From Rhodothermales bacterium (GTDB taxonomy: Bacteria; Bacteroidota; Rhodothermia; Rhodothermales; JABDKH01), in the NCBI GenBank assembly GCA_028284545.1, contig JANQRN010000104.1:1-48401 (forward strand): a DNA stretch of 48,401 nucleotides, written 5' to 3'. A program made the position numbers and the translations under genes. The notes beneath the pieces are model-generated. The model saw only the letters and a list, made by a program, of their open reading frames with translations. It was not told where the DNA came from and searched no databases. Of the stretch, positions 10,545 to 48,029 are shown in pieces (within the stretch, counting starts at the first letter, position 1; the number at the start of each line of letters is the position of its first letter).

Positions 10545-10957
10545 GCCTCGGGCGTTTAAGTGACAGAGCTTGATTAGCAACTTGTTGAGCGCATTCACCT
10601 CGATCCCGGGCCGATATCGACAGATCGATGCTGGCGAACGTATTGATAATGGATGCCCGCGCAAGAAGCAAACCAACGTAAGTACCGGTTTAAACCGCCT
10701 TTGTGCCCCGAAAATGTCGATAGTCGCTGAACGGTTTGATTAGCGATGTGAACGGTCACGAGAGACCTCTTGACGGCAATTCAGGGGCGCTCGATTTGCC
10801 CCGAACCGTAGCATGGATGGGCGCACAAACGACGGCGGTTCGACCACCAAGTGTCTAGCGAAGGTCTGCTGCTGTATCGAATACCGGATCGTCTGAGGGA
10901 CGGGCCGCCCGCGAACCAACGCACCCAACCTGCATATACTAACGTCACTATTCGGAA

Positions 10958-20309: not shown

Positions 20310-21440
20310 CTAGCGCAGTCTCGTGACCGTGCTCGTAATCGAACCGGTCTTGCCAGACAGCCGCACGAAGTATACTCCCACGGGAAGGTCGGCGGCCGGC
20401 AGTTCAAAGCGATACTGTTCTCCCGCGACGACGCTCCGTTCGCGGACCGCACCAACGGAGCGGCCCAACGCGTCGTAGAGCGCAACGGAGATGAAGTCGT
20501 TTTCCGGCGCAACGTAGTCGACGCTGACGGCGTCCACGAATGGATTTGGAAACGCGCGTAGATGGTCGTTAGCCTCGGCGACGGGGTCGTCCAGGCCAAC
20601 GGTCGACGGTCCTCCATCCTGGATTGTCAGCATTGCGCTCACGTCTTCCTGGACAACCTCGTATTCTTCGTGTGGGAGAAGTTCAAGTGAGACGGTTTCA
20701 ACCCCTTCGTAGCCGTTGTCGGGAACTGGCTCAACAACAACGAACGTTGCGGTATTGCCCGGTTCTATGGTCGCAAAGGAATCGATGTGGGCATAGTCGA
20801 CGCCATTCTCGGCGGAGCCTGTAACGGCAAAGAAGACAGTGAGCGCTTTCTCGAGTGAGCCCTCTCTGGTGATCCGGAACGCCCCGGTATTGTTGTCTCC
20901 ACGCTCGCTGGCATCCGCTTTCCCTCGCGAGGTCGCGACCTTGTTGCGCCCCGTCGGTGACGTTGCCTCGACGGTTGTACCGGAGAGGTTGTACAGCCCG
21001 TCATGTTGGTACGTACCGCCTCGGATGAACGGCGGGTTCTCGGCGTAGTTCAGGCCAATGGTTCCGTTGGATCCGCCAAACTCAATGTCCGTCGCTTGCT
21101 GCCAGAATCGCACTTCGATCTTCTCTCCCGCGTACAGACCATCCTTTTCGGGTGTGACCGGGTTGTCGCCCCAAAGTGTCAGCGCCACGTTCGCGCCGGT
21201 CCACGTCCGCGTTCCGACGCAGGTGCCGTCTTCTGAGAAGAAGGCGATCTCGTCACCGGCCTCGAACGGTGCGCCCATGAGTGTGTGCGTCCCGTTGTTG
21301 ACATCCACGATAATGGTAGCGGTACTACCAGTGTTGGAAACGCATCCGGCGAAATGGGGCTGGGCGTTTGAGGCAGGTGGCAGCCAGAGGGCGCAAGTCA
21401 GGAGCGCAGCTGCCGCGGAGCTTCGAGTGATCACGTGCAC
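20310..21440 (-). CDS. Secreted protein with Calx-beta-like repeats and a C-terminal type IX secretion system sorting domain
   Basis: An N-terminal signal peptide is present. The C-terminal 80 aa (PNPFVDAVSVDYVAPENDFISVALYDALGRSVGAVRERSVVAGEQYRFELPAADLPVGVYFVRLSGKTGSITSTVTRL) match the Por/T9SS C-terminal domain pattern. The gene converges on deoB. Confidence 0.75.
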   Translation of the reverse strand: MHVITRSSAAAALLTCALWLPPASNAQPHFAGCVSNTGSTATIIVDVNNGTHTLMGAPFEAGDEIAFFSEDGTCVGTRTWTGANVALTLWGDNPVTPEKDGLYAGEKIEVRFWQQATDIEFGGSNGTIGLNYAENPPFIRGGTYQHDGLYNLSGTTVEATSPTGRNKVATSRGKADASERGDNNTGAFRITREGSLEKALTVFFAVTGSAENGVDYAHIDSFATIEPGNTATFVVVEPVPDNGYEGVETVSLELLPHEEYEVVQEDVSAMLTIQDGGPSTVGLDDPVAEANDHLRAFPNPFVDAVSVDYVAPENDFISVALYDALGRSVGAVRERSVVAGEQYRFELPAADLPVGVYFVRLSGKTGSITSTVTRLR

Positions 21441-36359: not shown

Positions 36360-38558
36360 TCAGGAGCCGAAACGCGATCGCAGATCGGTTGGGGTAGCTG
36401 AGGCCGTGCCGGTGGCGTCGACTACAACTAGCTGATCGCGGAAGAGAAACGCAACTTCATTGCCCAGCTTCAGGAACGCCCGTGCGTCAGGATACATCTG
36501 GAAAAACGCGAAGTAGGCCTGGGACCCAAATTTCAGGTTCCACTCCGGCGCGTTTTCGGTGTTCGACTGCGTCAACCAGTTACCCGAGCCCGTTTGCACA
36601 AGGTTCTGCCCGAGGATGTTGATCAGGGGCGTCTCGTCGTCCTGTCGGATTACGCGCGCTTGCTTCAGGTCCCAGATGGCCTTGCTCATCTCGACAGCGT
36701 CTTTGCCCGAGGACTCCGACATCGCCTCTGGGGCGAATCGCTCACTCCGGCGCACAACGGCTCCGACCGGCGTCAGCGCGTCCAGTTCGCGGACCGCCGC
36801 AAAGCGTGCCTCATCCTCGGTTACGAGATAGGACGTGTATGGTGTGACAATGCCGAACTCCTTGGCCAGCGCGACTATCTCGTCGATCAGCGCCTCATTC
36901 TCTCCCTCGAGGCGAATGGATTCCAGCAGCACGCCGATTCGTCGCGTAGCCCAGACGCGCGCGACAAAGGCGTCGTCACGCATCACATCCGGCAAATCCA
37001 GCGAAACCTGTTGCGTGGTCTCCACGCCGTTGAGAGTTCCTTTGACCGTGATCACGGTCTTGCCCGCCCGGGCGTATCGGCCAGTAAGCGTTAGCGCATC
37101 TCCGAGGAACAGATCTGATGGTCTTCTGGGTGCAAGCTCAGAGAGTCGGACTCCGGTAGATGCAATGGTGATGTCCGTCATGACCGGATACCGCACCCTG
37201 TCGTAGAAGCTGGATACGCGTTCTTCGATATTCTCGTCGGGCCCGATATACTCGGCGAACGCACGCGAGTCCGTTGCAAGTCCGTCCAGCAGATCTGTGT
37301 TCACGTCGTAGCCTACGCCGAAGGCGAAGATGCGGGAATCGGTTGTGTTGTTGGCGCGGGCGTTCTGCAAAATCTCTTTTGGCATCACGACACCCGTTGA
37401 CGGGAGGCCGTCTGTGAGGAAGACAATTGTGCCGGGGCGCTCGTCGTCGAGCATGGCAAGTGCTTTGGCAAGCGCCTCGTTGATGTTGGTCCCACCCCGA
37501 GCCTCAAGTTGATCAACGAAGAAATGGGCGTCGTCGACTTCAGCCGTGCTGACGAGTTCGTCGGTAAACGCATTAGCGTCTGAGCTGAACGCCACCAGGC
37601 CAAACCTGTCGTCTTCTCCAAGACGGTCCAGTGCGTAGGAAACTGCCTCTCGTGCCTGAGCGATCTTCTCGCCAGCCATGCTTCCCGACGTATCCAGGAC
37701 GAACACGATGTCTCGTGGTGCCACCCGACGCGAGTCACGTACGACGGGCGGGTCGAGCATAAGCATGAAGTACCCCGACCTTCGTTTGTAGGGCCGGTGG
37801 GTAAGCAAGGTCGCGGCCAGGTGGTCACGACTCAGCGAGTAATAAAGGACGAAGCTCCTGGCGCGTTCATCAAGTTTGCCACCGGCCTCGACGAGTGTCG
37901 AGGCACCTGATCGCTTGACCGTGAGCTTGTTGGTGGGCGAATAGAGATTGCGGACGTCGGCGTCCGACGTAATCTCGACCGTCACCCGCGGCGCCGCACC
38001 AAGCGTCTGACCGTCCCGATGCGGACCGGCGTGACCGGCAGACAGGGCGCCGGTGAGCGGATGGACGAACCGGACGGTTTCTGCGGTGCGATCAAGGACG
38101 AGATCGTAGGTCAGGGTGATCTCTCGCGAAGCGCCCGGGTCGATGGGAAAGACCCGTGCCCGAAAAAGATTTCCGTCAGCCCACTCCAGCAGCGCTGGGT
38201 CAAGCACATTGCGTACGATTTCCTCGTAGGTGCGTCGCGCCTCTTTCGCGGGCAGCAGTTCGCCACCGACCACTTCGCCGTCAATCTTCAAGGTGAAGGC
38301 TGAAACGGCCGCACCGGCGGGCAGCGGAAAGAGAAAAGTGCCCTCGAGTCTCAGGCGCGATGGATTCCGGATTGCTGCGCTCACGGTGACGGTCGCAACC
38401 TGATGGTTGATCAGCGCAGAGACCTGGTGGTTTTCGAGCTGGAGTTCATTCGGTCGCGCGCTGCGGTCCAGAATCCATCCTTGCGCGAGCGCCGAAGACC
38501 CCGACGCGGTCGCGCCAGCAACCACGATTGCGAGCAATAAGAGCGGTTTGGTCCACAT
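36360..38558 (-). CDS. Secreted VIT-domain and von Willebrand factor type A (vWA) domain protein
   Basis: The signal peptide is MWTKPLLLLAIVVAGATASG; the start was refined from 38729 to the ATG at 38558. An N-terminal VIT-like region is present. The vWA MIDAS motif is VFVLDTSGSMAGEKI. The gene ends 18 bp upstream of the peptidase/PD40 paralog on the same strand. Confidence 0.75.
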   Translation of the reverse strand: MWTKPLLLLAIVVAGATASGSSALAQGWILDRSARPNELQLENHQVSALINHQVATVTVSAAIRNPSRLRLEGTFLFPLPAGAAVSAFTLKIDGEVVGGELLPAKEARRTYEEIVRNVLDPALLEWADGNLFRARVFPIDPGASREITLTYDLVLDRTAETVRFVHPLTGALSAGHAGPHRDGQTLGAAPRVTVEITSDADVRNLYSPTNKLTVKRSGASTLVEAGGKLDERARSFVLYYSLSRDHLAATLLTHRPYKRRSGYFMLMLDPPVVRDSRRVAPRDIVFVLDTSGSMAGEKIAQAREAVSYALDRLGEDDRFGLVAFSSDANAFTDELVSTAEVDDAHFFVDQLEARGGTNINEALAKALAMLDDERPGTIVFLTDGLPSTGVVMPKEILQNARANNTTDSRIFAFGVGYDVNTDLLDGLATDSRAFAEYIGPDENIEERVSSFYDRVRYPVMTDITIASTGVRLSELAPRRPSDLFLGDALTLTGRYARAGKTVITVKGTLNGVETTQQVSLDLPDVMRDDAFVARVWATRRIGVLLESIRLEGENEALIDEIVALAKEFGIVTPYTSYLVTEDEARFAAVRELDALTPVGAVVRRSERFAPEAMSESSGKDAVEMSKAIWDLKQARVIRQDDETPLINILGQNLVQTGSGNWLTQSNTENAPEWNLKFGSQAYFAFFQMYPDARAFLKLGNEVAFLFRDQLVVVDATGTASATPTDLRSRFGS

Positions 38559-38743
38559 GAGGTAGAAACGGCCCCTTGACGTTGAATATTGCCCCCGAGG
38601 TGCTGCGGATAGACACGTAAAGGGGTCCTGGAAACGTTTGGTCAGCCTATGACACATAGCTGTCACCCTCTTGGTGTACCCTTTTAGCGGGTCTTCCGTA
38701 GAAAGAGTGAAGGCCGACGTGCAGCGCAACCTAGAGGTCGGAA

Positions 38744-39277
38744 ATGTTGAAAGCCGAAACGATACCCACCACAGCCGAGCAGCCCATCCAAGAACGGATC
38801 GCGGGGCAGGAACGTCCGCACATTGAGGAGTTTGTGACCGAGGCGGGCCGCTATCTGAGTGAGGACACGATCGTTCTCACGTCCGTCCGGGATGCCGATT
38901 ACGGTATTGTGGATGTCGTTTTCGTTGGCCCTGAGGCGACCATCGGTTTCGCGTTCGGCGGGTCTTCCCGTGCGCGGGTGCCCTACTTCCTGGACGCGCT
39001 CTACGAAGTTGCGGCCCTTGACGTGGCTCACGGGCTCGGTGACATTCTGTACGTTGCGGCCCGCCATCACGGCGCGCTTTTCCAGGACGACGCGCGTCTC
39101 CGGCTGGTGCCGTTCTGCTCATCGAGAATCCTGGCCAATGGCCGGCGGCGCGGCTCGACGACCGTGGGTCGCGGTGACGACGGCGAGCCGATTGTTGTGC
39201 GGCGACGCACTGCGGTCGTCGCGGAGCCGTCTTTCGCGCCCTTCAGACGACCTTCTGGAGTGGGTACCGCAGCCTAA
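38744..39277 (+). CDS. Hypothetical cytoplasmic protein
   Basis: The 177-aa protein has no signal peptide. Its composition is protein-like and it contains a Gly-rich motif FAFGGSSRA. The C-terminal third is Arg-rich and may be a read-through artifact. No family was recognised. Confidence 0.35.
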   Translation: MLKAETIPTTAEQPIQERIAGQERPHIEEFVTEAGRYLSEDTIVLTSVRDADYGIVDVVFVGPEATIGFAFGGSSRARVPYFLDALYEVAALDVAHGLGDILYVAARHHGALFQDDARLRLVPFCSSRILANGRRRGSTTVGRGDDGEPIVVRRRTAVVAEPSFAPFRRPSGVGTAA

Positions 39278-39289
39278 AGTCCGGTGCGT

Positions 39290-39316
39290 GTTCGACTTAA
39301 GTTCATTTAAGCGAAC
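39290..39316 (+). promoter_or_regulatory. Composite inverted/direct repeat (GTTCG-ac-TTAAG-ttcat-TTAAG-CGAAC) in an AT-rich patch upstream of the pilin-like gene. It is a candidate operator.
   Basis: GTTCG (39290-39294) and CGAAC (39312-39316) form an inverted repeat that encloses two TTAAG copies (39297-39301 and 39307-39311). The element lies about 100 bp upstream of the ATG at 39414, in a locally AT-rich region of a 65% GC genome. Confidence 0.3.
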
Positions 39317-39413
39317 CGCGGTTCTTCCGATTACCGGAGAGATCCCATCAGCTATGGTCAGTCGGCCGTGGCTGTACCGTACATGGTATAGAAGGTATTC
39401 CAGGAGGAATAGA

Positions 39414-39890
39414 ATGAAACTCACGAAAGTGATTGCGGCATTGGTATTTCTGGGCGTGACGGCCACGGCCAGCAATGCGCAGACAACTGATGCGCACGAC
39501 GTAACGATCGTTGTGCCCACAGTCAACATGATCGCGGTCAGCGGCGACCTGACCCTCACGCTTGGACAGCCGGCAGCGCCGGGTGGTGATCCGGCCCCTG
39601 CGACCAGCACGGGCGCTCAGTATCTGGTCACGACGAACGAGACTGGCAAGAAGATCACCGCGGCTCTGAGCAGCAACTACTCCACGGGCATCACGCTCGC
39701 GGTAGAGCTCATCGCTGTTGGGTCAGCCACCTCTGCAGGTCAGGTCACGCTCTCAGCAACGGCAGTAGACGTCGTTACTGGAATCGGCCTCGTCTCGGGA
39801 AGCGCGGCGATCAACTACACGGCTTCTGCGACTTCAGCAGTTGCGCCGGGTTCGGAGACGCGTACGGTAACGTACACGCTGACGAGCTAG
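39414..39890 (+). CDS. Small secreted Thr/Ser/Ala/Val-rich beta-strand protein, DUF4402/SCPU-like. It is a putative major subunit of an archaic chaperone-usher-type fimbria.
   Basis: A perfect AGGAGG RBS sits 6 nt upstream. The signal peptide is MKLTKVIAALVFLGVTATASNA|QTT. The mature protein is about 135 aa, with alternating-polarity beta-strand composition and a C-terminal alternating motif TVTYTLTS that resembles the final strand of SCPU/Csu-type pilins. A hairpin terminator follows. The long ORF listed from 38859 is an upstream in-frame extension. Confidence 0.55.
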   Translation: MKLTKVIAALVFLGVTATASNAQTTDAHDVTIVVPTVNMIAVSGDLTLTLGQPAAPGGDPAPATSTGAQYLVTTNETGKKITAALSSNYSTGITLAVELIAVGSATSAGQVTLSATAVDVVTGIGLVSGSAAINYTASATSAVAPGSETRTVTYTLTS

Positions 39891-39953
39891 ATCGTTGGTC
39901 GCACTACTCGTCTTGATATCCCGTCAAGGACGATAAGCTAGTTGACAGCCATA

Positions 39954-39980
39954 CCCGCCGGCACGCGCCGGCGGGTTTTG
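39954..39980 (+). terminator. Intra-operon hairpin (attenuating terminator) after the pilin-like gene
   Basis: The stem is CCCGCCGGC-acgc-GCCGGCGGG, followed by TTTTGG. It lies between the highly expressed-looking subunit gene and the downstream genes, as is typical of fimbrial operons. Confidence 0.55.
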
Positions 39981-40048
39981 GTGTTGTCTCGCTGGATAGT
40001 CAATCTCCCGTTCCGCGAAACCACCGCGAACGATCCTGCGGAGGTCGT

Positions 40049-40561
40049 GTGTTTTCCCGCCTCGCCAAGACTGCAAACGAATTGTCTCCTGCGCTGATGT
40101 GCAGGCTGGCGGCGTTTGCTCTTTTTGTTTTTGCGAGTTCTGTTTCCGCGCTCGAGGCCACGGCGCAGCTCCTCTTCGTTTCGGGTCCGCCCACCGAGCT
40201 TACAATTGCGCCGCCGTCGTTCGCCGGACTTGATCCGCTTCCCGACGAAGACTCCGCTACGCGAATCGTCTGGCTCTTTTCGCCGCGCCGCCCGTCAAAA
40301 ATTGTCGTCAACACCGTGGCTCCGGGCCAGTCATTTCGGTTGTTCACTGAGGCACGGAACGTTTTCCGGGCGACAGGAATGCCGGAGGTACAGCTGTTTG
40401 ACGGCGGTCCCGGGTTGGATTTCATCCGCGACATTCCCCGCCGGTCTTTTATCGGCGCGGCATCCATCTACTTCCGAGCAGAGGCCCCGGCCCAACTCGG
40501 TAATTCACAACTGTACGGTGACGACAATCACACCGTCTACTTTACCTGGACTGCACAATGA
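40049..40561 (+). CDS. Secreted protein, a putative minor fimbrial subunit (alternative start at 40097)
   Basis: The internal Met at 40097 gives a canonical signal peptide (MCRLAAFALFVFASSVSALEA). The C-terminus HTVYFTWTAQ has the same alternating aromatic/Thr pattern as the upstream subunit. The stop overlaps the next gene's start by 4 bp. Confidence 0.5.
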   Translation: MFSRLAKTANELSPALMCRLAAFALFVFASSVSALEATAQLLFVSGPPTELTIAPPSFAGLDPLPDEDSATRIVWLFSPRRPSKIVVNTVAPGQSFRLFTEARNVFRATGMPEVQLFDGGPGLDFIRDIPRRSFIGAASIYFRAEAPAQLGNSQLYGDDNHTVYFTWTAQ

Positions 40562-41409
40562 GTTTCTCGAGCCTCCGGCACCTTCCGGGCGTTTGGGCCC
40601 AGTTTCTGGCGATCTGCCTAACGTGTTCGATCGCTGTTCCAAGCGCCGGCCAGATCTCTGTCGTCGGCGAGCTCGCTCGCGATCACGATGTCGCTCCTGG
40701 TAGCGTCGTCTTTGGGGAGATTGACGTGCACAATCCCACGAAGGCTCCTCGGCAGGCGAAGATCTACCAGACCGACTACAGCTTCTTTCTGGACGGTACT
40801 AATTTCTTCGACGAGCCGAGCACTCTCGAGCGCTCGAACGCAAAGTGGGTGCAGTTCTCGCCGTCGTTTGTAACCGTGCCGCCTGGACAGTCAGTATCGG
40901 TGCAGTACGAGGTGCGCGTCCCGACCGACTCGGTCGCACTCGCGGGCAGCTACTGGTCGGTTATCATGATCGAGGACATTCCCGACGATTCGCCGGAGTC
41001 GACGCTGGGTGATTCAGCCGATCCGGGTGAGGAGACTGAACTGGGAGTACGGCAGATCTACAGGTATGCGATTCAGATCGCGACGCACGTCCGAGTCACC
41101 GAGGAGTACGAAATCTCGTTTGCCGGCGTAGATCTCGAGCCGGGCATCACCGGCGGCCAGTTACTGCGAGTCGGGGTTGAGAACGATGGCAACATCCTTG
41201 TGCGTCCGCGTGTCTGGATCGAGCTGTTCAACGGCGAGGGCAAGAACCTCGGCAAGAGAGACTCCGAGGCAGCTCGGATCTACCCCGAGACGTCGGTGAG
41301 TTATCGATTTGATCTCAGCGATCTCGACTCCGGCGACTATGAGGTGCTGGTAGTGGTCGACGCCGGCGACGACAACCTGTTCGGCGGTCAATACTCCGTT
41401 TCGCTCTGA
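40558..41409 (+). CDS. Secreted 283-aa beta-rich protein. Its position and size fit a periplasmic chaperone-like component, but this is unverified.
   Basis: The signal peptide is MSFSSLRHLPGVWAQFLAICLTCSIAVPSAG. The mature protein is about 250 aa with two predicted Ig-like beta regions. The canonical PapD signature was not found. It is translationally coupled to the genes on both sides. Confidence 0.45.
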   Translation: MSFSSLRHLPGVWAQFLAICLTCSIAVPSAGQISVVGELARDHDVAPGSVVFGEIDVHNPTKAPRQAKIYQTDYSFFLDGTNFFDEPSTLERSNAKWVQFSPSFVTVPPGQSVSVQYEVRVPTDSVALAGSYWSVIMIEDIPDDSPESTLGDSADPGEETELGVRQIYRYAIQIATHVRVTEEYEISFAGVDLEPGITGGQLLRVGVENDGNILVRPRVWIELFNGEGKNLGKRDSEAARIYPETSVSYRFDLSDLDSGDYEVLVVVDAGDDNLFGGQYSVSL

Positions 41410-41415
41410 CCCAAC

Positions 41416-44400
41416 ATGCCGGCGCCCAGCCATAGAACACCTGCCATCTTTCCGGTGACGCGAGTCCTTGGGACTTTGCTTGCGCTACTGTCGTTGGCTC
41501 CCGCTGAGATCGGGAGAGCTGAAGGGCGGGCCATTGGCGATGTCGTCGAAGTTTCTCCAACGACGACCGAGCCTCTCGCGGCGGCGCCGGGAGAGGTGGT
41601 CACTGCCATCTTCACGGTGACGAACACCGGGACTGAGACACGCTCGTTCAAGGCTTCGGCGGACTTGCCAGCCGGCTGGCGTCGGATAGGGTCGTCGAAT
41701 TCGTTTGACGTCAGCGGCGGCGACACTGTGCGCCGCCTAATCTCTTTTCGTGTTTCAGCAGACGCGCCGGTAGGATCGTTCGACATTCGTTACCGCGTGA
41801 CTGATGTTGGGGCGCCGCTAGTATTTGATTCAGGCGTTGTCACCGTGGCCGTGGGCGAAAGTGACCGATTTGACATTACGCTGCTACGCGCACCTTCGTG
41901 GGTTGTCTCTGGTGACGATTATCAGATCGCACTCGTGCTGTCCAATCGCGGCAACGCGACGCGCCACATAAGGCTCCTGGCCAAGATCACCCCAGAAACG
42001 ACGTTTGACATGTCGCTCGACGAGTTGACGGTATTCGAGCCGGGTGAGCGTCAAACGTTGCGAGTCGACATCAGAGCGACGCAGGCGACGCAGCGCAAGC
42101 AACGTCAGTGGTTGCGGCTCCACGTCACTAGCGACGGCGTCGTGCTCAACGAGATTGCCGTTCCGGTCGACGTTCTTCCGACTGGAGGTTATGCTGATCG
42201 TGCCGGCCGAATGCCTGCAAGCGTTACGCTACACTCGTTCACGGGCCACCGGGGCAGCGGCGCGCAAGTAGAGTTCGATGCGCATGGACCCCTGAGAAAC
42301 GGCGGCACGGATATCATAGAGGTCGGCATTCGAACCCCCGATCGATCAACGGCATCGCTGTTCGCAAGGCGCGATGAATACCGGGTCGCCTATGTGAGTA
42401 AGTCGTGGGCCGTCATGCTTGGAGACCATGCGTTCTCGTTGTCTCCCCTCACCGAATACGGTAGGAGGGGACGCGGCGTGGGCGCAAGTGCCACCGCCGG
42501 CGCGCTGACGGCAACGGCTTTCTTTAGTCGTGGCCGATACGCGCTTCCCCGTGAAGACGTAGTTGGAGTTGGCCTGAAATACTCGTTGAGCGACGCGCTT
42601 CGATTCGGTGCAAATTTCCTCGACAAGTCGGGATTCTTGCCAGGCGAGAGCATCACGATTCGGTCCGAGTTTGAGCCAATCAGGGATGTCAAGCTTGACC
42701 TCGAGTTAGGCGACGGCGGCGACTCGGGTGTTCGAAGCTCTGCGTTTGCAGCGGGTGTGTCGGGTTCGCGGAAGTTTGGCAGTATCGACGCGCGCTACAT
42801 GAAAACGGGAAGAGCCTTTCCCGGGTTGTATCCAGACCGCACAGTCGCAAGCATGAGCTTTAGCGCACGACCAACACGCAACGTGCGGTTCGACGCAAGC
42901 GCTTCGACCGACGAGCGCAGACTCCAGTTCGCGTCCGCGGCCGGGTCAATTGTGCAATCGAAGTACGTGCGGGGCGGGCCGACTTACAAGTTTGAGTTTC
43001 TACGCAGTAAGGTGAATCTCTCAGCGGCCTACAAGTACCGCGCGCAGAATGCGGATTTTGGAAGTGCTGGTGAGAATCGCAACCATCTGTCGACCGAGCT
43101 GACCGCTGATATTGAGATCGGTCGCTATTCGCTCGGCGCATCAGTTGAGCACGGGTCAGTCTACGCCAGCTTCGTCGGCGAACGGCGCGCGGCTTCACGC
43201 TACGAACTTGCGACGCGTGCCCGCTATCGATCATTCTCCTGGAATGTCGCGGCATCGTTTGATCGAGGTGCGGCGATGTACCGGCTTGAAGGGCAGGAGA
43301 CGGCTTTGATATCCGTTGGAGCGAATGGCAACATAGGTAGCAGTTTTGCGTGGGGCGTCGACGCCTTTGCCATGTTTGATCGCTCGTTCATCGCAAGGCA
43401 GTATCGCTCGGTCGCCACGCGGGCAACGTACCAGCTACCATTCGGACATCATGTCGGCGTTCGCGCGCAGGTCACGGCAATCGGCGTCGGCGGTGGACTC
43501 TACGGCCACGATGTAGGTGTCACCTACCGCGTTCCCTTCAGCATACCGACGCTTCGCAAATCCGAGATGCGGATCCGGGGTCGCGTGGTGGATGCTGAAA
43601 CCGGTGAGGGCGTCACGGACGCACTCGTACGGGTGGGCAAAAGGACTGGCCAAACCCGTGAGGACGGTCGCTTCACAGTTCCGATCGCGGGCACTGAGAC
43701 GGAGTATCTCCTACTTGATGGCGCAAGTGTCGGACTTGATCGCGTTCCACTGATCGAGATGCCGATGGCCGTTAGTGACGACGTGATCGCATCGGAAATT
43801 GAGATTCCGGTGGCAGTAGCCGGGAGCATCAGCGGGATCGTCAATCGATTCGTGTTCGAGAACGGCGCGCTACAGACCGGGTCGCTAACGGCCTCAGCTC
43901 CTGAACCCGGGGTCGTTATTGAGTTCTCTGATGGTATAGGCCGCATTCGGACGACGTCCAGTGTTGACGGCACTTTTCGCGCGCCTCGCATCAGACCCGG
44001 TACCTGGACGGTGCGCATCGTGTACGCGAGCCTGCCCGAGACCTACGGCGTTGGTGAGCCGGTTACCGTGCATGTCGCTCCAGGACAGCGCGTCGATATC
44101 GAACTAAAGACAGTTCCTCGCCGGAGACAAATCCGATTTGTCGCATCCGGACGACTCAGTGCAGACTCGGTAGAGGCAAAGCCTGCATCGCCTGTCGAGC
44201 CAGTTGAGGAGACAGGGCTCCCCGGGAATGATCTTGCGTCCGGCGAAATTGGCGGCCAGACCCAGCTTGCTCATGCACCCATAACGCTGGACGGTTGTCC
44301 AATAACTGCTGAGCTACCGCTGCAGCACGAAGTTCTGCCAGGAGAAACGCTGACCGGCCTTGCGGCGACCTACTATTGCTCGGCGAGCAGCTGGCCCATC

Positions 44401-44727
44401 GTATGGTTTGGTAATGACGATGCTCTCCCGAATCCACATCGGCTGGAGCCGGGAGACAACCTTGTTGTTCCAGCTGTTGGCGCGGCACTCGGCTTTGAGC
44501 CCGATGCCGCAACGGGGCCGGCTCGACGCCACGTCGTTGCCGCTGGCGAGACGCTCAAGAGCATCGCCAGTGACTACTATGGACATGAGCGGTACTGGCC
44601 AAGGATCTGGATGGCGAATACACTCGTGGTCGGTGACGGGGTGGACGTACCCGCTGGCGCGGTCCTCGTAGTGCCAGGCTCAGAATGGCATCGGTTTGAG
44701 CGATTGATCCTCCGGCGCAAGCCATGA
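41416..44727 (+). CDS. Giant (1103-aa) secreted outer-membrane protein with DUF11/CARDB-like Ig repeats, a large beta-barrel region, two CarboxypepD_reg-like domains and two C-terminal LysM domains. It occupies the usher position of the cluster.
   Basis: An N-terminal signal peptide is present. The TVTNTG motif typical of DUF11/CARDB Ig-like repeats appears. The middle roughly 500 aa have an amphipathic beta-strand pattern rich in Tyr, Phe, Arg and Gly. IRGRVVDAETGEGVTDALVRV...DGRFTV matches CarboxypepD_reg. Two LysM motifs are present (HEVLPGETLTGLAATYY...EPGDNLVVP and RHVVAAGETLKSIASDYYG...VLVVP). Confidence 0.7.
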   Translation: MPAPSHRTPAIFPVTRVLGTLLALLSLAPAEIGRAEGRAIGDVVEVSPTTTEPLAAAPGEVVTAIFTVTNTGTETRSFKASADLPAGWRRIGSSNSFDVSGGDTVRRLISFRVSADAPVGSFDIRYRVTDVGAPLVFDSGVVTVAVGESDRFDITLLRAPSWVVSGDDYQIALVLSNRGNATRHIRLLAKITPETTFDMSLDELTVFEPGERQTLRVDIRATQATQRKQRQWLRLHVTSDGVVLNEIAVPVDVLPTGGYADRAGRMPASVTLHSFTGHRGSGAQVEFDAHGPLRNGGTDIIEVGIRTPDRSTASLFARRDEYRVAYVSKSWAVMLGDHAFSLSPLTEYGRRGRGVGASATAGALTATAFFSRGRYALPREDVVGVGLKYSLSDALRFGANFLDKSGFLPGESITIRSEFEPIRDVKLDLELGDGGDSGVRSSAFAAGVSGSRKFGSIDARYMKTGRAFPGLYPDRTVASMSFSARPTRNVRFDASASTDERRLQFASAAGSIVQSKYVRGGPTYKFEFLRSKVNLSAAYKYRAQNADFGSAGENRNHLSTELTADIEIGRYSLGASVEHGSVYASFVGERRAASRYELATRARYRSFSWNVAASFDRGAAMYRLEGQETALISVGANGNIGSSFAWGVDAFAMFDRSFIARQYRSVATRATYQLPFGHHVGVRAQVTAIGVGGGLYGHDVGVTYRVPFSIPTLRKSEMRIRGRVVDAETGEGVTDALVRVGKRTGQTREDGRFTVPIAGTETEYLLLDGASVGLDRVPLIEMPMAVSDDVIASEIEIPVAVAGSISGIVNRFVFENGALQTGSLTASAPEPGVVIEFSDGIGRIRTTSSVDGTFRAPRIRPGTWTVRIVYASLPETYGVGEPVTVHVAPGQRVDIELKTVPRRRQIRFVASGRLSADSVEAKPASPVEPVEETGLPGNDLASGEIGGQTQLAHAPITLDGCPITAELPLQHEVLPGETLTGLAATYYCSASSWPIVWFGNDDALPNPHRLEPGDNLVVPAVGAALGFEPDAATGPARRHVVAAGETLKSIASDYYGHERYWPRIWMANTLVVGDGVDVPAGAVLVVPGSEWHRFERLILRRKP

Positions 44728-44762
44728 TGTAACACCCTCCGGCGCCAGCCATGATTTAACAC
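44709..44762 (+). repeat. Tandem duplication of 27 bp (2 copies, 2 mismatches) spanning the stop codon of the 1103-aa gene
   Basis: CCTCCGGCGCAAGCCATGATGTAACAC is followed directly by CCTCCGGCGCCAGCCATGATTTAACAC. The first copy encodes the last residues (...LRRKP*). The second copy is a post-stop echo of the gene tail. Confidence 0.8.
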
Positions 44763-44891
44763 TGAGGGTCCCGGAGCGATAATCAGAGCGTCGCGAATAC
44801 GCAGTTCTGCAAGAGACTGATAATATTGATCTTGCGTACGTGTGTATCATTTCTATATTGAAGCGACAAATTCTGATTAGACCGAAATTTT

Positions 44892-45344
44892 TTGAGCGTC
44901 CTCAGCATTCGAGCGCGTGCTCGTGCCTGTAGGTTCGCGCGAATAGCTCTCCAGTTTGCGCTTCCGGGATTGATAACTGCCGGGAGCGTCTGTGGGCAGT
45001 CGCGCGATGCCGTGCGGCATGTGGCCGATGCGCGGCACAGCATCACGATTGATGTACCCCAATATGCCCGCTTCGGGAGTGCACGCATCCAGGTCGGATC
45101 AGCGCGCAACCTGAACGGACGTGTTTGGCTCCATACAAACGCAACGTCCTTGCTGGCAACGCAGTCACGCTTTCGGTACGGGCCCTCATCGCAGCTCTTG
45201 CGTGCGCAGCCTATACATGCTGCCCTCGAGTTCGACCCGTCGGAGAGCGCCCCCGACAGTTCGCTGCAGCGCTTCGACGTCGAGCATGTTGACGAAGACG
45301 GCGTGCTTGTATCGTGGGTTTATGTAACCGTTACCGACAGATAG
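44892..45344 (+). CDS. Hypothetical protein with an uncertain start, possibly another fimbrial-subunit-like protein
   Basis: The ORF has a TTG start and is preceded by a roughly 100-bp AT-rich region. The C-terminus VSWVYVTVTDR again shows an alternating beta pattern. There are no strong family features, and the gene converges on the flotillin gene. Confidence 0.3.
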   Translation: MSVLSIRARARACRFARIALQFALPGLITAGSVCGQSRDAVRHVADARHSITIDVPQYARFGSARIQVGSARNLNGRVWLHTNATSLLATQSRFRYGPSSQLLRAQPIHAALEFDPSESAPDSSLQRFDVEHVDEDGVLVSWVYVTVTDR

Positions 45345-45345
45345 T

Positions 45346-46593
45346 CTATTCGGAGTTGGATTCGCCGCCGCCAGCGCTTGATCCGGCGCGCGAGAGCATG
45401 CCGGCGACATCTATCCCGGTTGACGCCTTGAGACTTTCGAGCAGCGCCGGAGTGGAGCCCGCGATCTGATTAAAGACTGCCGGAACGCCCGCGCCGCCCT
45501 GACCACTGTCCACCACCGTGATCTTGTCAATCTTCAGGTTGTCTACGGTTTGTACAACCTGCGCAAGAATGTCTGGTAACATCTGTATCAGGAACAGCCG
45601 CTCGGCATCGTTGCCCGCCTGACGCCAAAGTTCGAGTTTTCGCCGCAGGACCTCGACCTCAGCCTGTCCGTCTTCGAGAATCCGCGCCGCGTTGCCTTTG
45701 GCGATCTCTTCTTTTGCCTGGCGTTCGGCTTCAGCCTTGACAATCGTCATGGCCCGCTGCTCCTTCTCTTGCAGCGTTATTCGTTCCTCCAGGAGTTGCT
45801 GTTTGGCCTGGGCTTCCGCAGTCTGCGCAGCGATAGAGACCTTTGCCTCCTCGGCCTCCGCGTCGGCCGCCAACTGGGCCCGGATGACACGTACCTCATT
45901 TTCAGCCTCGGCAATCGCGAGGTCGGCCTTTGCCTCCGCGAGCTTTGCCTGTTCGCGCTTTTCAGCTTCGACGACCTCGGCAGCGGCAATGACATTGGCA
46001 GAACTCTGTCGACCAATTGCGTCCAGGTAACCGCGGTCATCCTCGACACTCTGGATCTTGAGTGTGTCAAGCTGCAATCCGAGTGCGCTCAGGTCGCTGT
46101 CGGCTTCGGCAACGAGCTCTTTCGCGAACTTCAGTCGATCTTCGTTGACCTCTTCCGGGGTGAGCGATGCCACAACACCTCTGAGATTGCCTTCCAGGGT
46201 CTCCTTGGCGATGACCATGATCTCGTCAAGCGACTTGCCGAGCAGGCGTTCAACGGCGTTGTCCAACTCCGCCTCAGTGGAACTGATCTTCACGTTGGCG
46301 ATGGCCCGAACGGTGAGCGGGATTCCACCCTTGCAGTAGGCGTTCGTTACTGTCAGATCGATGGGGATCGTGTTGAGTACCAGACGATCGACCTTTTCAA
46401 TGATCGGGATACGAAAGCCACGACCGCCCTGGATGACGCGATACCCAACTTGGGAGCCGTCACTAAGCTGTCGCTGACGTCCACTAAAGATGAGAACCTC
46501 GTTCGGCTGGCAAATCTTGAGATTGGATCTCACAATTCCCAGTACCGCCATGACGGCAACGATGATTACAAACGGTACGACGAAGATTTCCAT
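45346..46593 (-). CDS. Flotillin-like SPFH/band-7 domain protein
   Basis: An N-terminal transmembrane anchor is followed by the SPFH domain (PNEVLIFSGRQ...RGFRIPIIEKVDRLVLNTIPIDL). A long Glu/Ala-rich coiled-coil follows (EAKLAEAKADLAIAEAENE...). This is the YqiK/FloT-type architecture. Confidence 0.85.
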   Translation of the reverse strand: MEIFVVPFVIIVAVMAVLGIVRSNLKICQPNEVLIFSGRQRQLSDGSQVGYRVIQGGRGFRIPIIEKVDRLVLNTIPIDLTVTNAYCKGGIPLTVRAIANVKISSTEAELDNAVERLLGKSLDEIMVIAKETLEGNLRGVVASLTPEEVNEDRLKFAKELVAEADSDLSALGLQLDTLKIQSVEDDRGYLDAIGRQSSANVIAAAEVVEAEKREQAKLAEAKADLAIAEAENEVRVIRAQLAADAEAEEAKVSIAAQTAEAQAKQQLLEERITLQEKEQRAMTIVKAEAERQAKEEIAKGNAARILEDGQAEVEVLRRKLELWRQAGNDAERLFLIQMLPDILAQVVQTVDNLKIDKITVVDSGQGGAGVPAVFNQIAGSTPALLESLKASTGIDVAGMLSRAGSSAGGGESNSE

Positions 46594-46634
46594 TGGCCGT
46601 GCTCAGATAGAGTGATGAATCAGAGTATACGAGG

Positions 46635-47249
46635 TTATGTGGGCTTTACTACTTCGGCAATCGTTCCGTCGATTCGGACGATCACGACTTCCTCTCCCTG
46701 ACTGAATGCTTCGGTAGATTCGTCGTCCAGCGGACGAGCGATGAGTTGCAACTTACGCCCTTTAGATACGACGGTGATCTTCCCCCGGTCCTTGGCACCG
46801 AAGGGAAGGAGTACATGTGCGGTTCGTCCGCGCAACTCCTTCGAGGTAACGTTACTCGAGACACTCGCGTAAGCGAAGCGCTTGATAAGGAAGTTTCCTC
46901 CGAGCCCGCAGAGCAATCCCGTTCCAATCGATAAGATGGCGGCGAGCGGTTCTCCCGTTCCGACGAGGTTCAGAAGGACGCCCGTCAGGCCGAAGAAGGC
47001 GGCGAATAGGAACAGCGCCCTGACGGAGAGGAGGTCGATGAAACCGACGCCGGCTCCGAGATCGTGATCCGCTCCGACATCCAGGCCCCCGTCCATATCG
47101 GCGTCGACGTCGACATCCATGTCAGCATCGAAGTCGATGTCCATGTCGACGTCGGCATCCACGTCTGTATCGGTCTCGCCGCCACCGAAAATCGACAGCA
47201 GGACGAAGAAACCGCCAACGATGAGACTGATCAGGTAAACGCTGTTCAT
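46635..47249 (-). CDS. NfeD-family (YqiJ-like) membrane protein partner of flotillin
   Basis: The start was refined to MNSVYLISLIVGGFFVLL (47249). The protein has transmembrane helices, an unusual alternating-Asp loop (DTDVDADVDMDIDFDADMDVDVDADMD) and a C-terminal NfeD OB-fold (GKITVVSKGRKLQLIARPLDD...EEVVIVRIDGTIAEV). It lies immediately upstream of the flotillin gene on the same strand. Confidence 0.75.
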   Translation of the reverse strand: MNSVYLISLIVGGFFVLLSIFGGGETDTDVDADVDMDIDFDADMDVDVDADMDGGLDVGADHDLGAGVGFIDLLSVRALFLFAAFFGLTGVLLNLVGTGEPLAAILSIGTGLLCGLGGNFLIKRFAYASVSSNVTSKELRGRTAHVLLPFGAKDRGKITVVSKGRKLQLIARPLDDESTEAFSQGEEVVIVRIDGTIAEVVKPT

Positions 47250-47408
47250 TTGGCTCAAATGGCGAAAGATTGCAATTATCCTTGTACGGCGCGACGGGCA
47301 GGATGTGCCAGCGATTAGGCAAAATCGCATGACGTTCGAAGTATGACAATCAGTTGTCACAGGTCGCTGGTAGACTGGTGACAGATCCGAAACAAACCCC
47401 AAAGCGTC

Positions 47409-48029
47409 GTGAAACAAACAGCCGAAACGCACACCGTTGCGCCCCCGCTATTCGACCTGGCCGCCCTGCGGGCGCACTTTCCTGAGGCAGACGTCTCGTG
47501 GCGCCCGCTAGTGTACACCCGAGACCGTAAACGCGCCCTGGTCGTCGCCTATGTATCGAACCGCGCAATCATGGATCGGCTCGACGCGGTCTGCGGCCCC
47601 GAGAACTGGAAGAACACTTTTCGAAAAGGTCCCGACGGCGGCGTCATCTGTGGGATCTCGATCCGCATACACGGCGAGTGGGTTACGAAGTGGGACGGCG
47701 CAGAAAACACGGATGTAGAGTCTGTCAAGGGCGGACTCTCGGCGAGCATGCGACGAGCCGCCGTGCAGTGGGGAATTGGACGATATCTCTACCGGCTGCC
47801 CCGCGTGTGGGTACCTGTTGATGAGAAGGGTCGGCCGGCGCGCACGCCGACGATGCCACCCGACTACCGGGTGGCGTCGTCGGGTGATGGGCAGGACACT
47901 CCGCATCTGCAGCCCTACGTGTTGGTCAACGGCGAACAGCCACCACGAAAGAATGGCAAGCTGCACCGCCAGAATCAGAAACCGAGGCCGAAGCGGGCGA
48001 CCCCCGGGCCGCGTGCAAAGGCGAGCTGA
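47409..48029 (+). CDS. Putative Rad52/Rad22-family (DdrA/Sak-like) single-strand annealing protein
   Basis: The N-terminal 150 aa follow the Rad52 N-domain pattern: L..L...F....+SWRP, then a hairpin block VICGISIRIHGEWVTKWDGAEN, then K..LSASMRRAAVQWGIGRYLY (compare eukaryotic ...[33 protein letters not shown]). A Pro/basic-rich C-terminal tail follows. The assignment is by motif resemblance only. Confidence 0.4.
   Translation: MKQTAETHTVAPPLFDLAALRAHFPEADVSWRPLVYTRDRKRALVVAYVSNRAIMDRLDAVCGPENWKNTFRKGPDGGVICGISIRIHGEWVTKWDGAENTDVESVKGGLSASMRRAAVQWGIGRYLYRLPRVWVPVDEKGRPARTPTMPPDYRVASSGDGQDTPHLQPYVLVNGEQPPRKNGKLHRQNQKPRPKRATPGPRAKAS

What the first reader, a model, noticed from the sequence alone, without database searches (positions are those of the whole stretch)
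38744..45344. Candidate archaic (sigma/SCPU-DUF4402-type) chaperone-usher-like surface fibre locus with an atypical giant LysM-bearing outer-membrane component
The layout fits a fimbrial operon. It opens with a small secreted Thr/Ser-rich beta protein that has a perfect SD and a pilin-like C-terminal strand (TVTYTLTS). A hairpin terminator directly follows that gene, a classic device for setting subunit-to-machinery stoichiometry in fimbrial operons. Next come a second secreted protein with the same C-terminal pattern, a secreted 283-aa beta protein at the chaperone position, and a 1103-aa beta-barrel protein at the usher position. A possible third subunit-like gene follows. The cluster is unusual in two ways. 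It sits in a T9SS-bearing, Bacteroidota-like genome, and the usher-position protein is elaborate (Ig repeats plus two LysM).
Basis: partly seen in the sequence, partly recalled or inferred. Interest (0 to 1): 0.7.

Follow-up and report, generated by a model that had tools for sequence, protein, structure and literature searches.

The report
Undescribed chaperone-usher-like fibre locus
This is a real five-gene operon that looks built to assemble a surface fibre the way E. coli builds pili, but all three kinds of component belong to protein families nobody has described, and the same operon layout recurs in all 79 related loci retrieved from Rhodothermales, Ignavibacteria and Bacteroidota genomes.

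Summary
On the + strand lie S1 (39414-39890, AGGAGG Shine-Dalgarno, followed by a 10-bp GC hairpin plus T-tract), S2 (40049-40561), C (40558-41409) and U (41416-44727). A doubtful fifth ORF, S3, lies at 44892-45344.

The chaperone-usher-like reading is supported by fold and synteny:
- All 79 related loci keep the order S(1-6)-C-U(-S).
- The subunit class just upstream of C, which includes S2, lacks the roughly 12-residue N-terminal extension of the other subunits. A tip subunit in a donor-strand-exchange polymer would look like this.

The "archaic SCPU/DUF4402" label is not supported: 0 of 56 S members hit those families. U is not an usher by sequence, with no PF00577 hit in 50 members, hhalign E 0.23, and no PDB sequence match for its central region. 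That central region of about 470 aa is only inferred to be a barrel. U is also not a TonB-dependent receptor.

Verdict: a new variant of the chaperone-usher kind, undescribed in the literature I could search.

The parts
38744..39277 (+). Conserved hypothetical ORF (177 aa, no signal peptide) upstream of S1. Whether it belongs to the system is uncertain.
   Evidence: No Pfam family. tblastn finds it upstream of S1 in L004 (57% identity over 143 aa, E 3e-40) and in L008 (E 8e-14).
39402..39407 (+). Shine-Dalgarno AGGAGG, 6 nt before the S1 start codon.
   Evidence: Read directly from the sequence.
39414..39890 (+). S1, the candidate major fibre subunit. It has a signal peptide, a roughly 15-residue N-terminal extension (TTDAHDVTIVVPTVN) that is the candidate donor strand, and a pilin-like Ig core ending TVTYTLTS.
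39953..39986 (+). Intrinsic-terminator-like hairpin (10 bp, 9 G-C, loop of 4) plus T-tract after S1. It is a candidate attenuator that would set an excess of S1 over the downstream genes.
   Evidence: An orthologous hairpin is present in L004, and similar hairpins follow upstream S genes in a minority of loci.
40049..40561 (+). S2, a diverged subunit paralogue of the 'C-proximal' class, which lacks the N-terminal extension. It is the candidate tip or first-incorporated subunit. The start is GTG 40049 (GGAGG 4 nt upstream) or ATG 40097.
   Evidence: The HMM of C-proximal subunits from 80 loci hits S2 at E 6.5e-43, and S1 hits the same HMM at 4.6e-24. The extension is absent: 12 residues versus 23-25 between the signal-peptide core and the conserved Gly.
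40558..41409 (+). C, a periplasmic protein of two Ig-like domains (PapD / WxLIP fold) with a long flexible loop (aa 142-168) before the last strand of domain 1. It is the candidate donor-strand chaperone. Its start overlaps the S2 stop.
41416..44727 (+). U, a 1103-aa secreted protein at the usher position and the candidate outer-membrane assembly platform.
   Evidence: Immediately follows C in all 79 loci. The family has 638 representatives. No usher, plug or TonB-receptor Pfam hit in 50 members.
41584..42126 (+). U N-terminal pair of Ig-like domains (NEW3-like, aa 57-129; HYDIN/ASH/FixG_C-like, aa 166-237).
   Evidence: The homologous extra Ig domain in P0151 reaches the PapD_N gathering score (24.1 bits against a cut-off of 23).
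42163..43575 (+). U central domain (aa 250-720), a new family and a putative outer-membrane beta-barrel.
   Evidence: 27 amphipathic period-2 segments against 18 +/- 3.5 in column shuffles. Sub-threshold Porin_4 hits in 4 of 50 members; in the one located (P0160, aa 459-560, E 3.6e-5) the hit lies inside this domain. No PDB sequence match at E<=10. hhalign against FimD/CfaC/EcpC gives E 0.23.
43576..44106 (+). U: two CarboxypepD_reg (transthyretin-like) beta-sandwich domains, at the position of the usher C-terminal domains.
   Evidence: 49 of 50 members. Weak CooC_C (class-5 usher C-terminal domain) hits in 6 of 50 members, best E 0.0047, at the start of the first of these domains.
44317..44679 (+). 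U: two LysM peptidoglycan-binding domains (aa ~968-1020 and 1035-1088). They are accessory, being replaced by SPOR, TPR or nothing in other family members.
   Evidence: LysM in 8 of 50 members and SPOR in 15 of 50.
44892..45344 (+). S3, an ORF at the position of the trailing subunit gene seen in about 40 of the related loci. Not confirmed as a subunit.
   Evidence: No hit to any S HMM. hhalign against the S family gives E 0.38 over the N-terminal 15 residues only. The best match is the syntenic ORF of L006, E 0.038.

Best explanation
The locus encodes a donor-strand fibre assembly system that works like a chaperone-usher pathway but is built from unrelated or very distantly related families.

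1. All products are exported by Sec. This is inferred from their signal peptides.
2. In the periplasm, C holds each subunit by inserting a strand into the subunit's incomplete Ig fold. C is a two-domain PapD/WxLIP-fold protein. The inserted strand would be the conserved, alternately hydrophobic segment (aa ~162-178) that follows C's long flexible loop. This step is inferred.
3. C-subunit complexes dock on U. U has N-terminal PapD/ASH-like Ig domains, a putative barrel of about 470 aa, and two C-terminal beta-sandwich domains placed like usher CTD1 and CTD2. A LysM pair would tether the machine to peptidoglycan. This step is inferred.
4. The fibre grows by donor-strand exchange. The N-terminal extension of an incoming S1 (TTDAHDVTIVVPTVN) displaces C from the previous subunit.
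5. S2 has the acceptor fold but no extension. It can therefore only sit at the distal end, as the first-incorporated tip subunit.
6. The hairpin after S1 would keep S1 in excess over S2, C and U.

What is shown: the folds of S1 and C, the paralogy of S1 and S2, the missing extension in the S2 class, the invariant gene order, and the domain make-up of U. What is inferred: the strand exchange itself, the barrel, and the existence of a fibre.
For: - Open groove (suggestive). In the monomer model the conserved LTLTL segment (aa 45-50) and the N-terminal extension are confident but form no beta-ladder. This is what an A2-type strand would look like if its partner is a donated strand.
- Synteny. Every one of the 79 loci retrieved from the genome collection has S(1-6)-C-U on one strand, often with a trailing S. 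555 genome stretches encode a C relative. Several genomes carry more than one locus.
- Tip-subunit signature. The subunit directly upstream of C forms its own subfamily in 80 loci. S2 belongs to it (E 6.5e-43). The class lacks the roughly 12-residue extension present in the first and trailing subunits.
- Donor-strand resemblance. hhalign places the S-family extension on the CfaB donor strand (VEKNITVTASVD). The alignment is colinear over 93 columns but is not significant (E 0.05).
- U topology. C-terminal LysM (8 of 50 members) or SPOR (15 of 50) domains put the C-terminus in the periplasm. The central domain is rich in amphipathic beta segments and gives sub-threshold Porin_4 hits. There are weak CooC_C hits at the first C-terminal sandwich domain.
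Against: - None of the three components is a sequence member of a chaperone-usher family. 0 of 56 S members hit Fimbrial, SCPU or DUF4402. Only 1 of 37 C members touches PapD_N, at E 0.007. No Usher hit is among the 25 most-matched families (of 94) in the 50 U members scanned, and hhalign of U against three ushers gives E 0.23.
- No structure of U was obtained, so its barrel and any pore are unproven.
- The subunit groove and the chaperone-subunit complex were not modelled.
- The best structural match of C, WxLIP, is a stable membrane-anchored surface protein, not a transient chaperone.
- No experimental fibre is known for these loci, and I found no paper on them.
Confidence: 0.6

Rival explanations
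1. A diderm counterpart of the Gram-positive WxL cluster. On this view C is a WxLIP homologue that forms a stable, non-polymerising complex with the small S proteins. This cell-envelope scaffold would be held to peptidoglycan by U's LysM or SPOR domains, and no fibre would be made.
Against: C has no transmembrane anchor. No S member carries the dual WxL motif (0 of 56). The S fold matches polymerising pilins best. Having 1-6 paralogous subunits plus exactly one extension-less subunit per locus is hard to explain without polymerisation. A roughly 470-aa barrel-like domain has no counterpart in WxL clusters.
Confidence: 0.2
2. The subunits do polymerise by donor-strand complementation, but U is not the translocon. 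On this view the S proteins self-assemble, as TasA, archaeal cannulae and bundling pili do, or leave by another route. U would then be an anchor or an adhesin.
For: CanX, TasA-like proteins and bundling pilins rank high among the S1 structural matches. U has no detectable homology to ushers.
Against: C and U are adjacent, 0-10 nt apart, in essentially all loci. That points to a functional pair. A periplasmic PapD-fold partner is unnecessary for self-assembling systems. The S proteins have no T9SS sorting domain.
Confidence: 0.12
3. A nutrient-uptake or glycan-binding outer-membrane complex. On this view U is a transporter, as SusC-type proteins with CarboxypepD_reg domains are, and S and C are binding proteins.
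For: CarboxypepD_reg and NEW3-like domains are common in Bacteroidota glycan-utilisation proteins.
Against: No Plug, TonB_dep_Rec or SusD hit is among the 25 most-matched families in 50 U members. The CarboxypepD_reg domains follow the barrel-like region instead of preceding it. The S and C folds are those of a pilin and a chaperone. No glycoside hydrolases are conserved in the neighbourhood.
Confidence: 0.04

Closest known systems
Alternate (alpha, class 5) chaperone-usher pili: CFA/I (CfaABCE), CS1 (CooBACD)
   Different: There is no significant sequence similarity to CfaA, CfaB or CfaC. The extension-less subunit here is a single domain of about 130 aa, not a two-domain adhesin like CfaE. 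The gene order differs (subunits first). U carries two N-terminal Ig domains and peptidoglycan-binding modules that ushers lack. The hosts belong to the FCB group, not Proteobacteria.
Archaic (sigma) chaperone-usher pili: Csu, CupE, SCPU/DUF4402 subunits
WxL clusters of Firmicutes (small and large WxL proteins plus WxLIP = DUF916-DUF3324-TM)
   Different: C has no TM helix and S has no WxL motif. The hosts are diderm. There is a large barrel-like OM component. There are multiple paralogous subunits with and without an N-terminal extension.
Usher-independent donor-strand filaments (TasA, archaeal cannulae CanA/CanX, bundling pili)
   Different: Those systems have no dedicated two-domain periplasmic partner and no OM platform gene.
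Type V pili of Bacteroidia (FimA/Mfa)
   Same: They occur in the same broad phylum and form strand-exchange polymers.
   Different: Type V pilins are lipoproteins activated by proteolysis. S1 and S2 have ordinary signal peptides ending in AQ and no Cys in the mature protein. No FimA-type family hit appears among the 25 most-matched families of the S members.

Membership tests
Chaperone-usher pathway (any clade) | Subunit with an Ig-like pilin fold completed by a donated strand, plus an N-terminal donor extension. | tested here: inconclusive
   The fold matches pilins best, and an extension is present in S1 but absent in the S2 class. The groove and the exchange itself were not modelled.
Chaperone-usher pathway (any clade) | Subunit belongs to Fimbrial (PF00419), SCPU (PF05229), DUF4402 (PF14352) or another known pilin family. 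| tested here: not met
   None of these families is among the 25 most-matched families (of 45) in 56 members scanned at E<=10. S1, S2 and S3 have no Pfam or NCBIfam hit.
Chaperone-usher pathway (any clade) | Periplasmic chaperone with two Ig-like domains of the PapD fold. | tested here: met
Chaperone-usher pathway (any clade) | Chaperone is a sequence member of PapD_N/PapD_C (PF00345/PF02753). | tested here: not met
   1 of 37 members hits PapD_N, at E 0.007. The profile search of PDB sequences finds no chaperone. hhalign against CfaA, FimC and EcpB gives E >= 0.06.
Chaperone-usher pathway (any clade) | Conserved basic pair in the chaperone cleft (Arg8/Lys112 of PapD) anchoring the subunit C-terminus. 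| not testable with these tools
   C has invariant R92 and R169, but no residue-level superposition was available.
Chaperone-usher pathway (any clade) | Usher: PF00577 24-strand barrel with plug, PapC_N and PapC_C. | tested here: not met
   No usher family is among the 25 most-matched families in 50 members. hhalign against FimD, CfaC and EcpC gives E 0.23-0.57. The central profile has no PDB sequence hit. The fold of U was not obtained.
Chaperone-usher pathway (any clade) | Operon with subunit(s), chaperone and OM platform co-transcribed. | tested here: met
   The order S(n)-C-U is kept in all 79 loci, and S2/C and C/U are overlapping or closely abutting.
WxL / WxLIP cluster | DUF916 (WxLIP_PGBD) plus DUF3324 (WxLIP_HBD) two-domain protein. 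| tested here: inconclusive
WxL / WxLIP cluster | [quoted passage not shown] | tested here: not met
   The longest hydrophobic run in the last 40 aa of C members is <=6. 0 of 56 S members have two WxL motifs.
TonB-dependent receptor | Plug (PF07715) plus TonB_dep_Rec barrel (PF00593), with an N-terminal position for any CarboxypepD_reg domain. | tested here: not met
   Neither family is among the 25 most-matched families in 50 members. The CarboxypepD_reg domains lie C-terminal to the central domain.
Type V pilus (FimA/Mfa) | Lipoprotein signal (lipobox Cys) and the FimA-type fold and family. | tested here: not met
   Mature S1 and S2 have no Cys and their signal peptides end in AQ. No such Pfam hit appears among the 25 most-matched families.

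The most novel reading that the evidence does not exclude
This may be a third lineage of donor-strand fibre machinery, specific to the FCB superphylum (Rhodothermota, Ignavibacteriota, Bacteroidota, with hits in Calditrichota and Gemmatimonadota). Its chaperone would be the missing link between proteobacterial PapD-type chaperones and the Gram-positive WxL-interacting proteins. Its outer-membrane platform would be a new, peptidoglycan-tethered barrel family that arose independently of ushers. If so, donor-strand complementation by a two-domain Ig protein would be an ancient, envelope-wide principle rather than a proteobacterial invention.
Probability: 0.4. Interest if true: 0.85.

Novelty: new variant of a known kind. 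Interest (0 to 1): 0.72.

Why it matters
Chaperone-usher pili are the textbook adhesive organelles of Proteobacteria. Outside that phylum only archaic SCPU-type systems and the unrelated type V pili of Bacteroidia are recognised.

Here three unannotated families form an invariant operon:
- S has no Pfam domain.
- C is marginally WxLIP-like.
- The central domain of U has no match in Pfam or among PDB sequences.

Relatives of C are encoded in at least 555 genome stretches of a species-level collection, and U has 638 cluster representatives. The folds point to the same assembly logic as chaperone-usher pili.

If confirmed, several things would follow. The locus would give environmental Rhodothermales, Ignavibacteria and Bacteroidota a surface fibre nobody has looked for. 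It would define a new outer-membrane translocon family. It would connect the enigmatic Gram-positive WxL clusters to pilus biology. It would also supply names for hundreds of 'hypothetical protein' operons.

Tried and rejected
1. Direct family searches. Pfam and NCBIfam on the five proteins gave only generic Ig, CarboxypepD_reg and LysM hits.
2. Sequence and profile searches of PDB. For S, C, whole U and central U there were no pilin, chaperone or usher hits.
3. Comparison with E. coli reference proteins. I fetched FimA/C/D, EcpA/B/C and CfaA/B/C. Local hmmsearch and hhalign against them gave nothing significant.
5. AlphaFold-database fold search. It was unavailable, so a structural comparison with DUF4402 models was not possible.
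6. S3 as a subunit. No HMM, phmmer or jackhmmer support.
7. Sigma-54 promoter upstream of S1. There is none in the window, although about 10 related loci have TGGCAC-N5-TTGCA upstream of an S gene.
8. Other conserved neighbour genes. A clustering search found only antisense shadow ORFs, generic response regulators and one 561-aa family present in 21 loci.
9. Literature. Searches for this system in FCB phyla found nothing.
10. Rejected readings. The TonB-dependent receptor and type V pilus interpretations were rejected (see the membership tests).
Full report
**What is in the sequence**

The + strand between 39.4 and 44.7 kb carries four tightly packed genes.

- S1 (39414-39890, 158 aa) is preceded by AGGAGG at 39402-39407, 6 nt from the ATG. 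Its signal peptide ends ASNAQ. The mature protein of 135 aa is 28.9% Thr+Ser, has no Cys, has a pI of 4.2, and ends TVTYTLTS.
- A hairpin begins 63 nt after the S1 stop. It has a 10-bp stem (9 G-C), a loop of 4, and a T-tract, at 39953-39986.
- S2 (40049-40561) ends HTVYFTWTAQ. Its stop overlaps the ATG of C (ATGA).
- C spans 40558-41409 (283 aa).
- U (41416-44727, 1103 aa) starts 6 nt after the C stop.
- A further ORF, S3 (44892-45344, TTG start), follows after 165 nt.

The finding's left boundary, 38744, is the start of a separate 177-aa ORF. That ORF has no signal peptide and no family match. It is conserved upstream of S1 in two related loci.

The wider window is ordinary chromosome. It carries genes I read, from their translations only, as PBP2/RodA, ArgRS, Der and a sigma factor. 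It also encodes a T9SS sorting-domain protein at 20310-21440. G+C is about 0.60 throughout, with no compositional break at the locus. The closest relatives of the locus are Rhodothermia MAGs, with 70% identity for C.

**Direct family tests**

Pfam and NCBIfam give nothing for S1, S2 or S3, and only weak generic Ig hits for C. For U they give:
- a NEW3-like Ig domain (aa 57-129);
- a HYDIN/ASH-like Ig domain (aa 166-237);
- two CarboxypepD_reg domains (aa ~720-900);
- two LysM domains (aa ~968-1088).

Of 56 S homologues scanned one by one at E<=10, none hits SCPU, DUF4402 or Fimbrial.

Among 37 C homologues, the recurring specific families are:
- WxLIP_PGBD (formerly DUF916): 11 members, best E 5.7e-5;
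- WxLIP_HBD (formerly DUF3324): 2 members;
- PapD_N: 1 member, at E 0.007.

For 50 U homologues, no Usher, PapC_N, PapC_C, Plug or TonB_dep_Rec appears among the 25 most-matched families.

**Folds**

The WxLIP paper predicts that a long, otherwise disordered loop of WxLIP becomes a strand that completes the sandwich of its small WxL partner (PMC10599100). That is the same principle as donor-strand complementation.

The segment of C that follows its long loop (LGVRQIYRYAIQIATHV) alternates hydrophobic and polar residues. It also contains the invariant R169 and Q173. This is where the G1 donor strand of a pilus chaperone would sit. That placement is my inference from the secondary-structure string, not a superposition.

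**Comparative genomics**

The three families are large and unnamed:
- S has 68 homologues, none with a Pfam domain, from Rhodothermales, Calditrichota, Eisenbacteria and Longimicrobium.
- C relatives are encoded in 555 stretches of the species-level genome collection. The 79 best loci are labelled mostly Ignavibacteria, Bacteroidota/Chitinophagales and Rhodothermales.
- The central domain of U has 638 representatives at 50% identity. It sits at residues ~250-700 of proteins of 900-1100 aa.

I called ORFs in the 79 loci and scored them with HMMs of the three families. Every locus has the same order on one strand: one to six S genes, then C, then U directly after it. About half have a trailing S gene. 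Some MAGs have two loci, for example L072/L078, L044/L073 and L026/L046.

The hairpin after S1 is conserved in the nearest relative, L004. Similar hairpins follow upstream S genes in a minority of loci: 13 of 67 at the position corresponding to S1, against 8 of 81 after the C-proximal S gene.

**The subunit next to C is special**

S2 is only marginally similar to the S1-family profile (hhalign E 0.023). An HMM built from the S gene immediately upstream of C in 80 loci hits S2 at E 6.5e-43 and S1 at 4.6e-24. S2 is therefore a position-specific paralogue.

The consensus sequences show the difference:
- First and trailing subunits read signal peptide, then ASATQTVTLEVNEIN, then KIAVSGNVTLTI.
- The C-proximal class goes straight from the signal peptide to ELSVTGGNVTLTI.

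I measured the distance from the end of the signal-peptide hydrophobic core to the conserved Gly. The median is 23-25 residues in the first and trailing classes and 12 in the C-proximal class. One strand-length N-terminal extension is therefore present in the multi-copy subunits and absent from the single C-proximal one.

In chaperone-usher pili the subunit without a donor extension is the one incorporated first, and it sits at the tip. That statement rests on established knowledge of FimH, PapG and CfaE, not on a test made here.

hhalign places the S-family extension on the N-terminal donor strand of CfaB (VEKNITVTASVD). The alignment is colinear over 93 columns but not significant (E 0.05).

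In the S1 monomer model, the extension and the conserved LTLTL segment (aa 45-50) are confident but unpaired. An A2-type strand whose only partner is a donated strand would behave this way. This too is an inference.

**The usher-position protein**

U is not an usher by sequence.
- hmmsearch and hhalign of the family against FimD, CfaC and EcpC give E 0.2-0.6. The reference proteins were fetched.
- A 70-sequence profile of the central domain finds nothing in PDB sequences at E<=10.

What can be said in favour of an outer-membrane platform is the following.
- The architecture parallels an usher: N-terminal beta-sandwich domains, a central domain of about 470 aa, and two C-terminal beta-sandwich domains.
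- The N-terminal domains are of the PapD/ASH kind. An extra copy in P0151 passes the PapD_N threshold.
- There are weak CooC_C hits at the first C-terminal sandwich domain.
- The family ends in peptidoglycan-binding modules (LysM 8 of 50, SPOR 15 of 50) or TPR, which puts that end in the periplasm.
- The central domain has 27 amphipathic period-2 segments in the family profile, against 18 +/- 3.5 in column shuffles (maximum 28).
- Four of 50 members give sub-threshold Porin_4 hits. In the one I located, the hit lies inside the central domain (P0160, aa 459-560, E 3.6e-5, 24.1 bits against a cut-off of 27).

I could not model U. The barrel is therefore an inference, and it is the weakest link of the argument.

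**S3**

S3 has a plausible signal peptide. Its N-terminal motif (ARHSITIDVPQY) recalls the S1 extension. No profile, phmmer or jackhmmer search supports membership. Its only weak match is the syntenic ORF of L006 (E 0.038). I leave it unconfirmed.

**Interpretation**

The best reading is a donor-strand fibre system with chaperone-usher logic, built from new families:
- S1 as the major subunit, with a donor extension;
- S2 as an extension-less tip subunit;
- C as the periplasmic strand-donating chaperone;
- U as a peptidoglycan-tethered outer-membrane platform.

I put this at about 0.6. The main rival is a non-polymerising, WxL-like envelope complex (about 0.2). It draws on C being nearest to WxLIP. 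It does not explain the pilin-like fold, the several paralogous subunits, the single extension-less subunit, or the lack of an anchor on C. A third option is that the subunits polymerise but U is not the pore (about 0.12). An uptake system is unlikely (about 0.04).

**Known or new**

I found no paper describing such a system in these phyla. None of the public labels for the proteins goes beyond 'hypothetical', apart from one automatic 'PapD' call.

The mechanism proposed is a known kind. The components fail the sequence-membership tests for chaperone-usher families, and the chaperone sits between PapD-type chaperones and WxLIP. I therefore rate it a new variant of a known kind, with interest 0.72. 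The novelty is real and widespread, but every functional step is still computational.

Noticed in passing
window 38744-39277 (+): A 177-aa ORF with no signal peptide and no family match is conserved at the protein level directly upstream of S1 in L004 (57% identity) and L008. It may be a locus-specific regulator or accessory gene.
   Followed up: partly
L012, L022, L034, L045, L048, L049, L057, L069 and others (positions); P0097 contig: About 10 related loci have a sigma-54-type TGGCAC-N5-TTGCA motif 50-110 nt upstream of an S gene. 13 of the 24 + strand matches in 1.04 Mb lie upstream of S genes. The P0097 contig has a histidine kinase, a response regulator and a sigma-54 activator directly after U. 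The window itself has no such promoter.
   Followed up: partly
window 7464-10676 (-) and 33372-36341 (-): Two large paralogous-looking secreted proteins (1070 and 989 aa). Each has a peptidase-like N-terminus, PD40/TolB-type beta-propeller repeats and a long C-terminal beta-rich region ending in an aromatic residue. Only the PD40 hits of the second were checked.
   Followed up: partly
window 36360-38729 (-): A secreted VIT-VWA protein (789 aa) lies divergently next to the locus (VIT E 1e-25, VWA E 3e-19). It is not conserved next to related loci.
   Followed up: partly
window 20310-21440 (-): A Calx-beta protein with a T9SS C-terminal sorting domain. It confirms that the host is T9SS-bearing and Bacteroidota-like.
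   Followed up: yes
window 45346-47432 (-) and 47409-48029 (+): A flotillin/SPFH gene and an NfeD-like gene form a pair. They are followed by a Rad52/Rad22-family protein (E 1.5e-13), which is unusual on a bacterial chromosome and is often of phage origin.
   Followed up: no
U homologues P0114-P0167: The C-terminal module of the U family is interchangeable: LysM (8 of 50), SPOR (15 of 50), TPR/BamD-like (P0152, P0167) or none. P0151 has an additional Ig domain that passes the PapD_N gathering score.
   Followed up: partly
L074 (1536-6425 and 7961-11506); L072/L078 on one contig: Some genomes carry two S-C-U loci close together. In L074 the two copies give identical scores, so this is either a recent tandem duplication or an assembly repeat.
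   Followed up: no
L011 13151-14422 and 20 other loci: A secreted family of about 561 aa recurs downstream of the trailing S gene in 21 loci. It is not present in the window and was not characterised.
   Followed up: no
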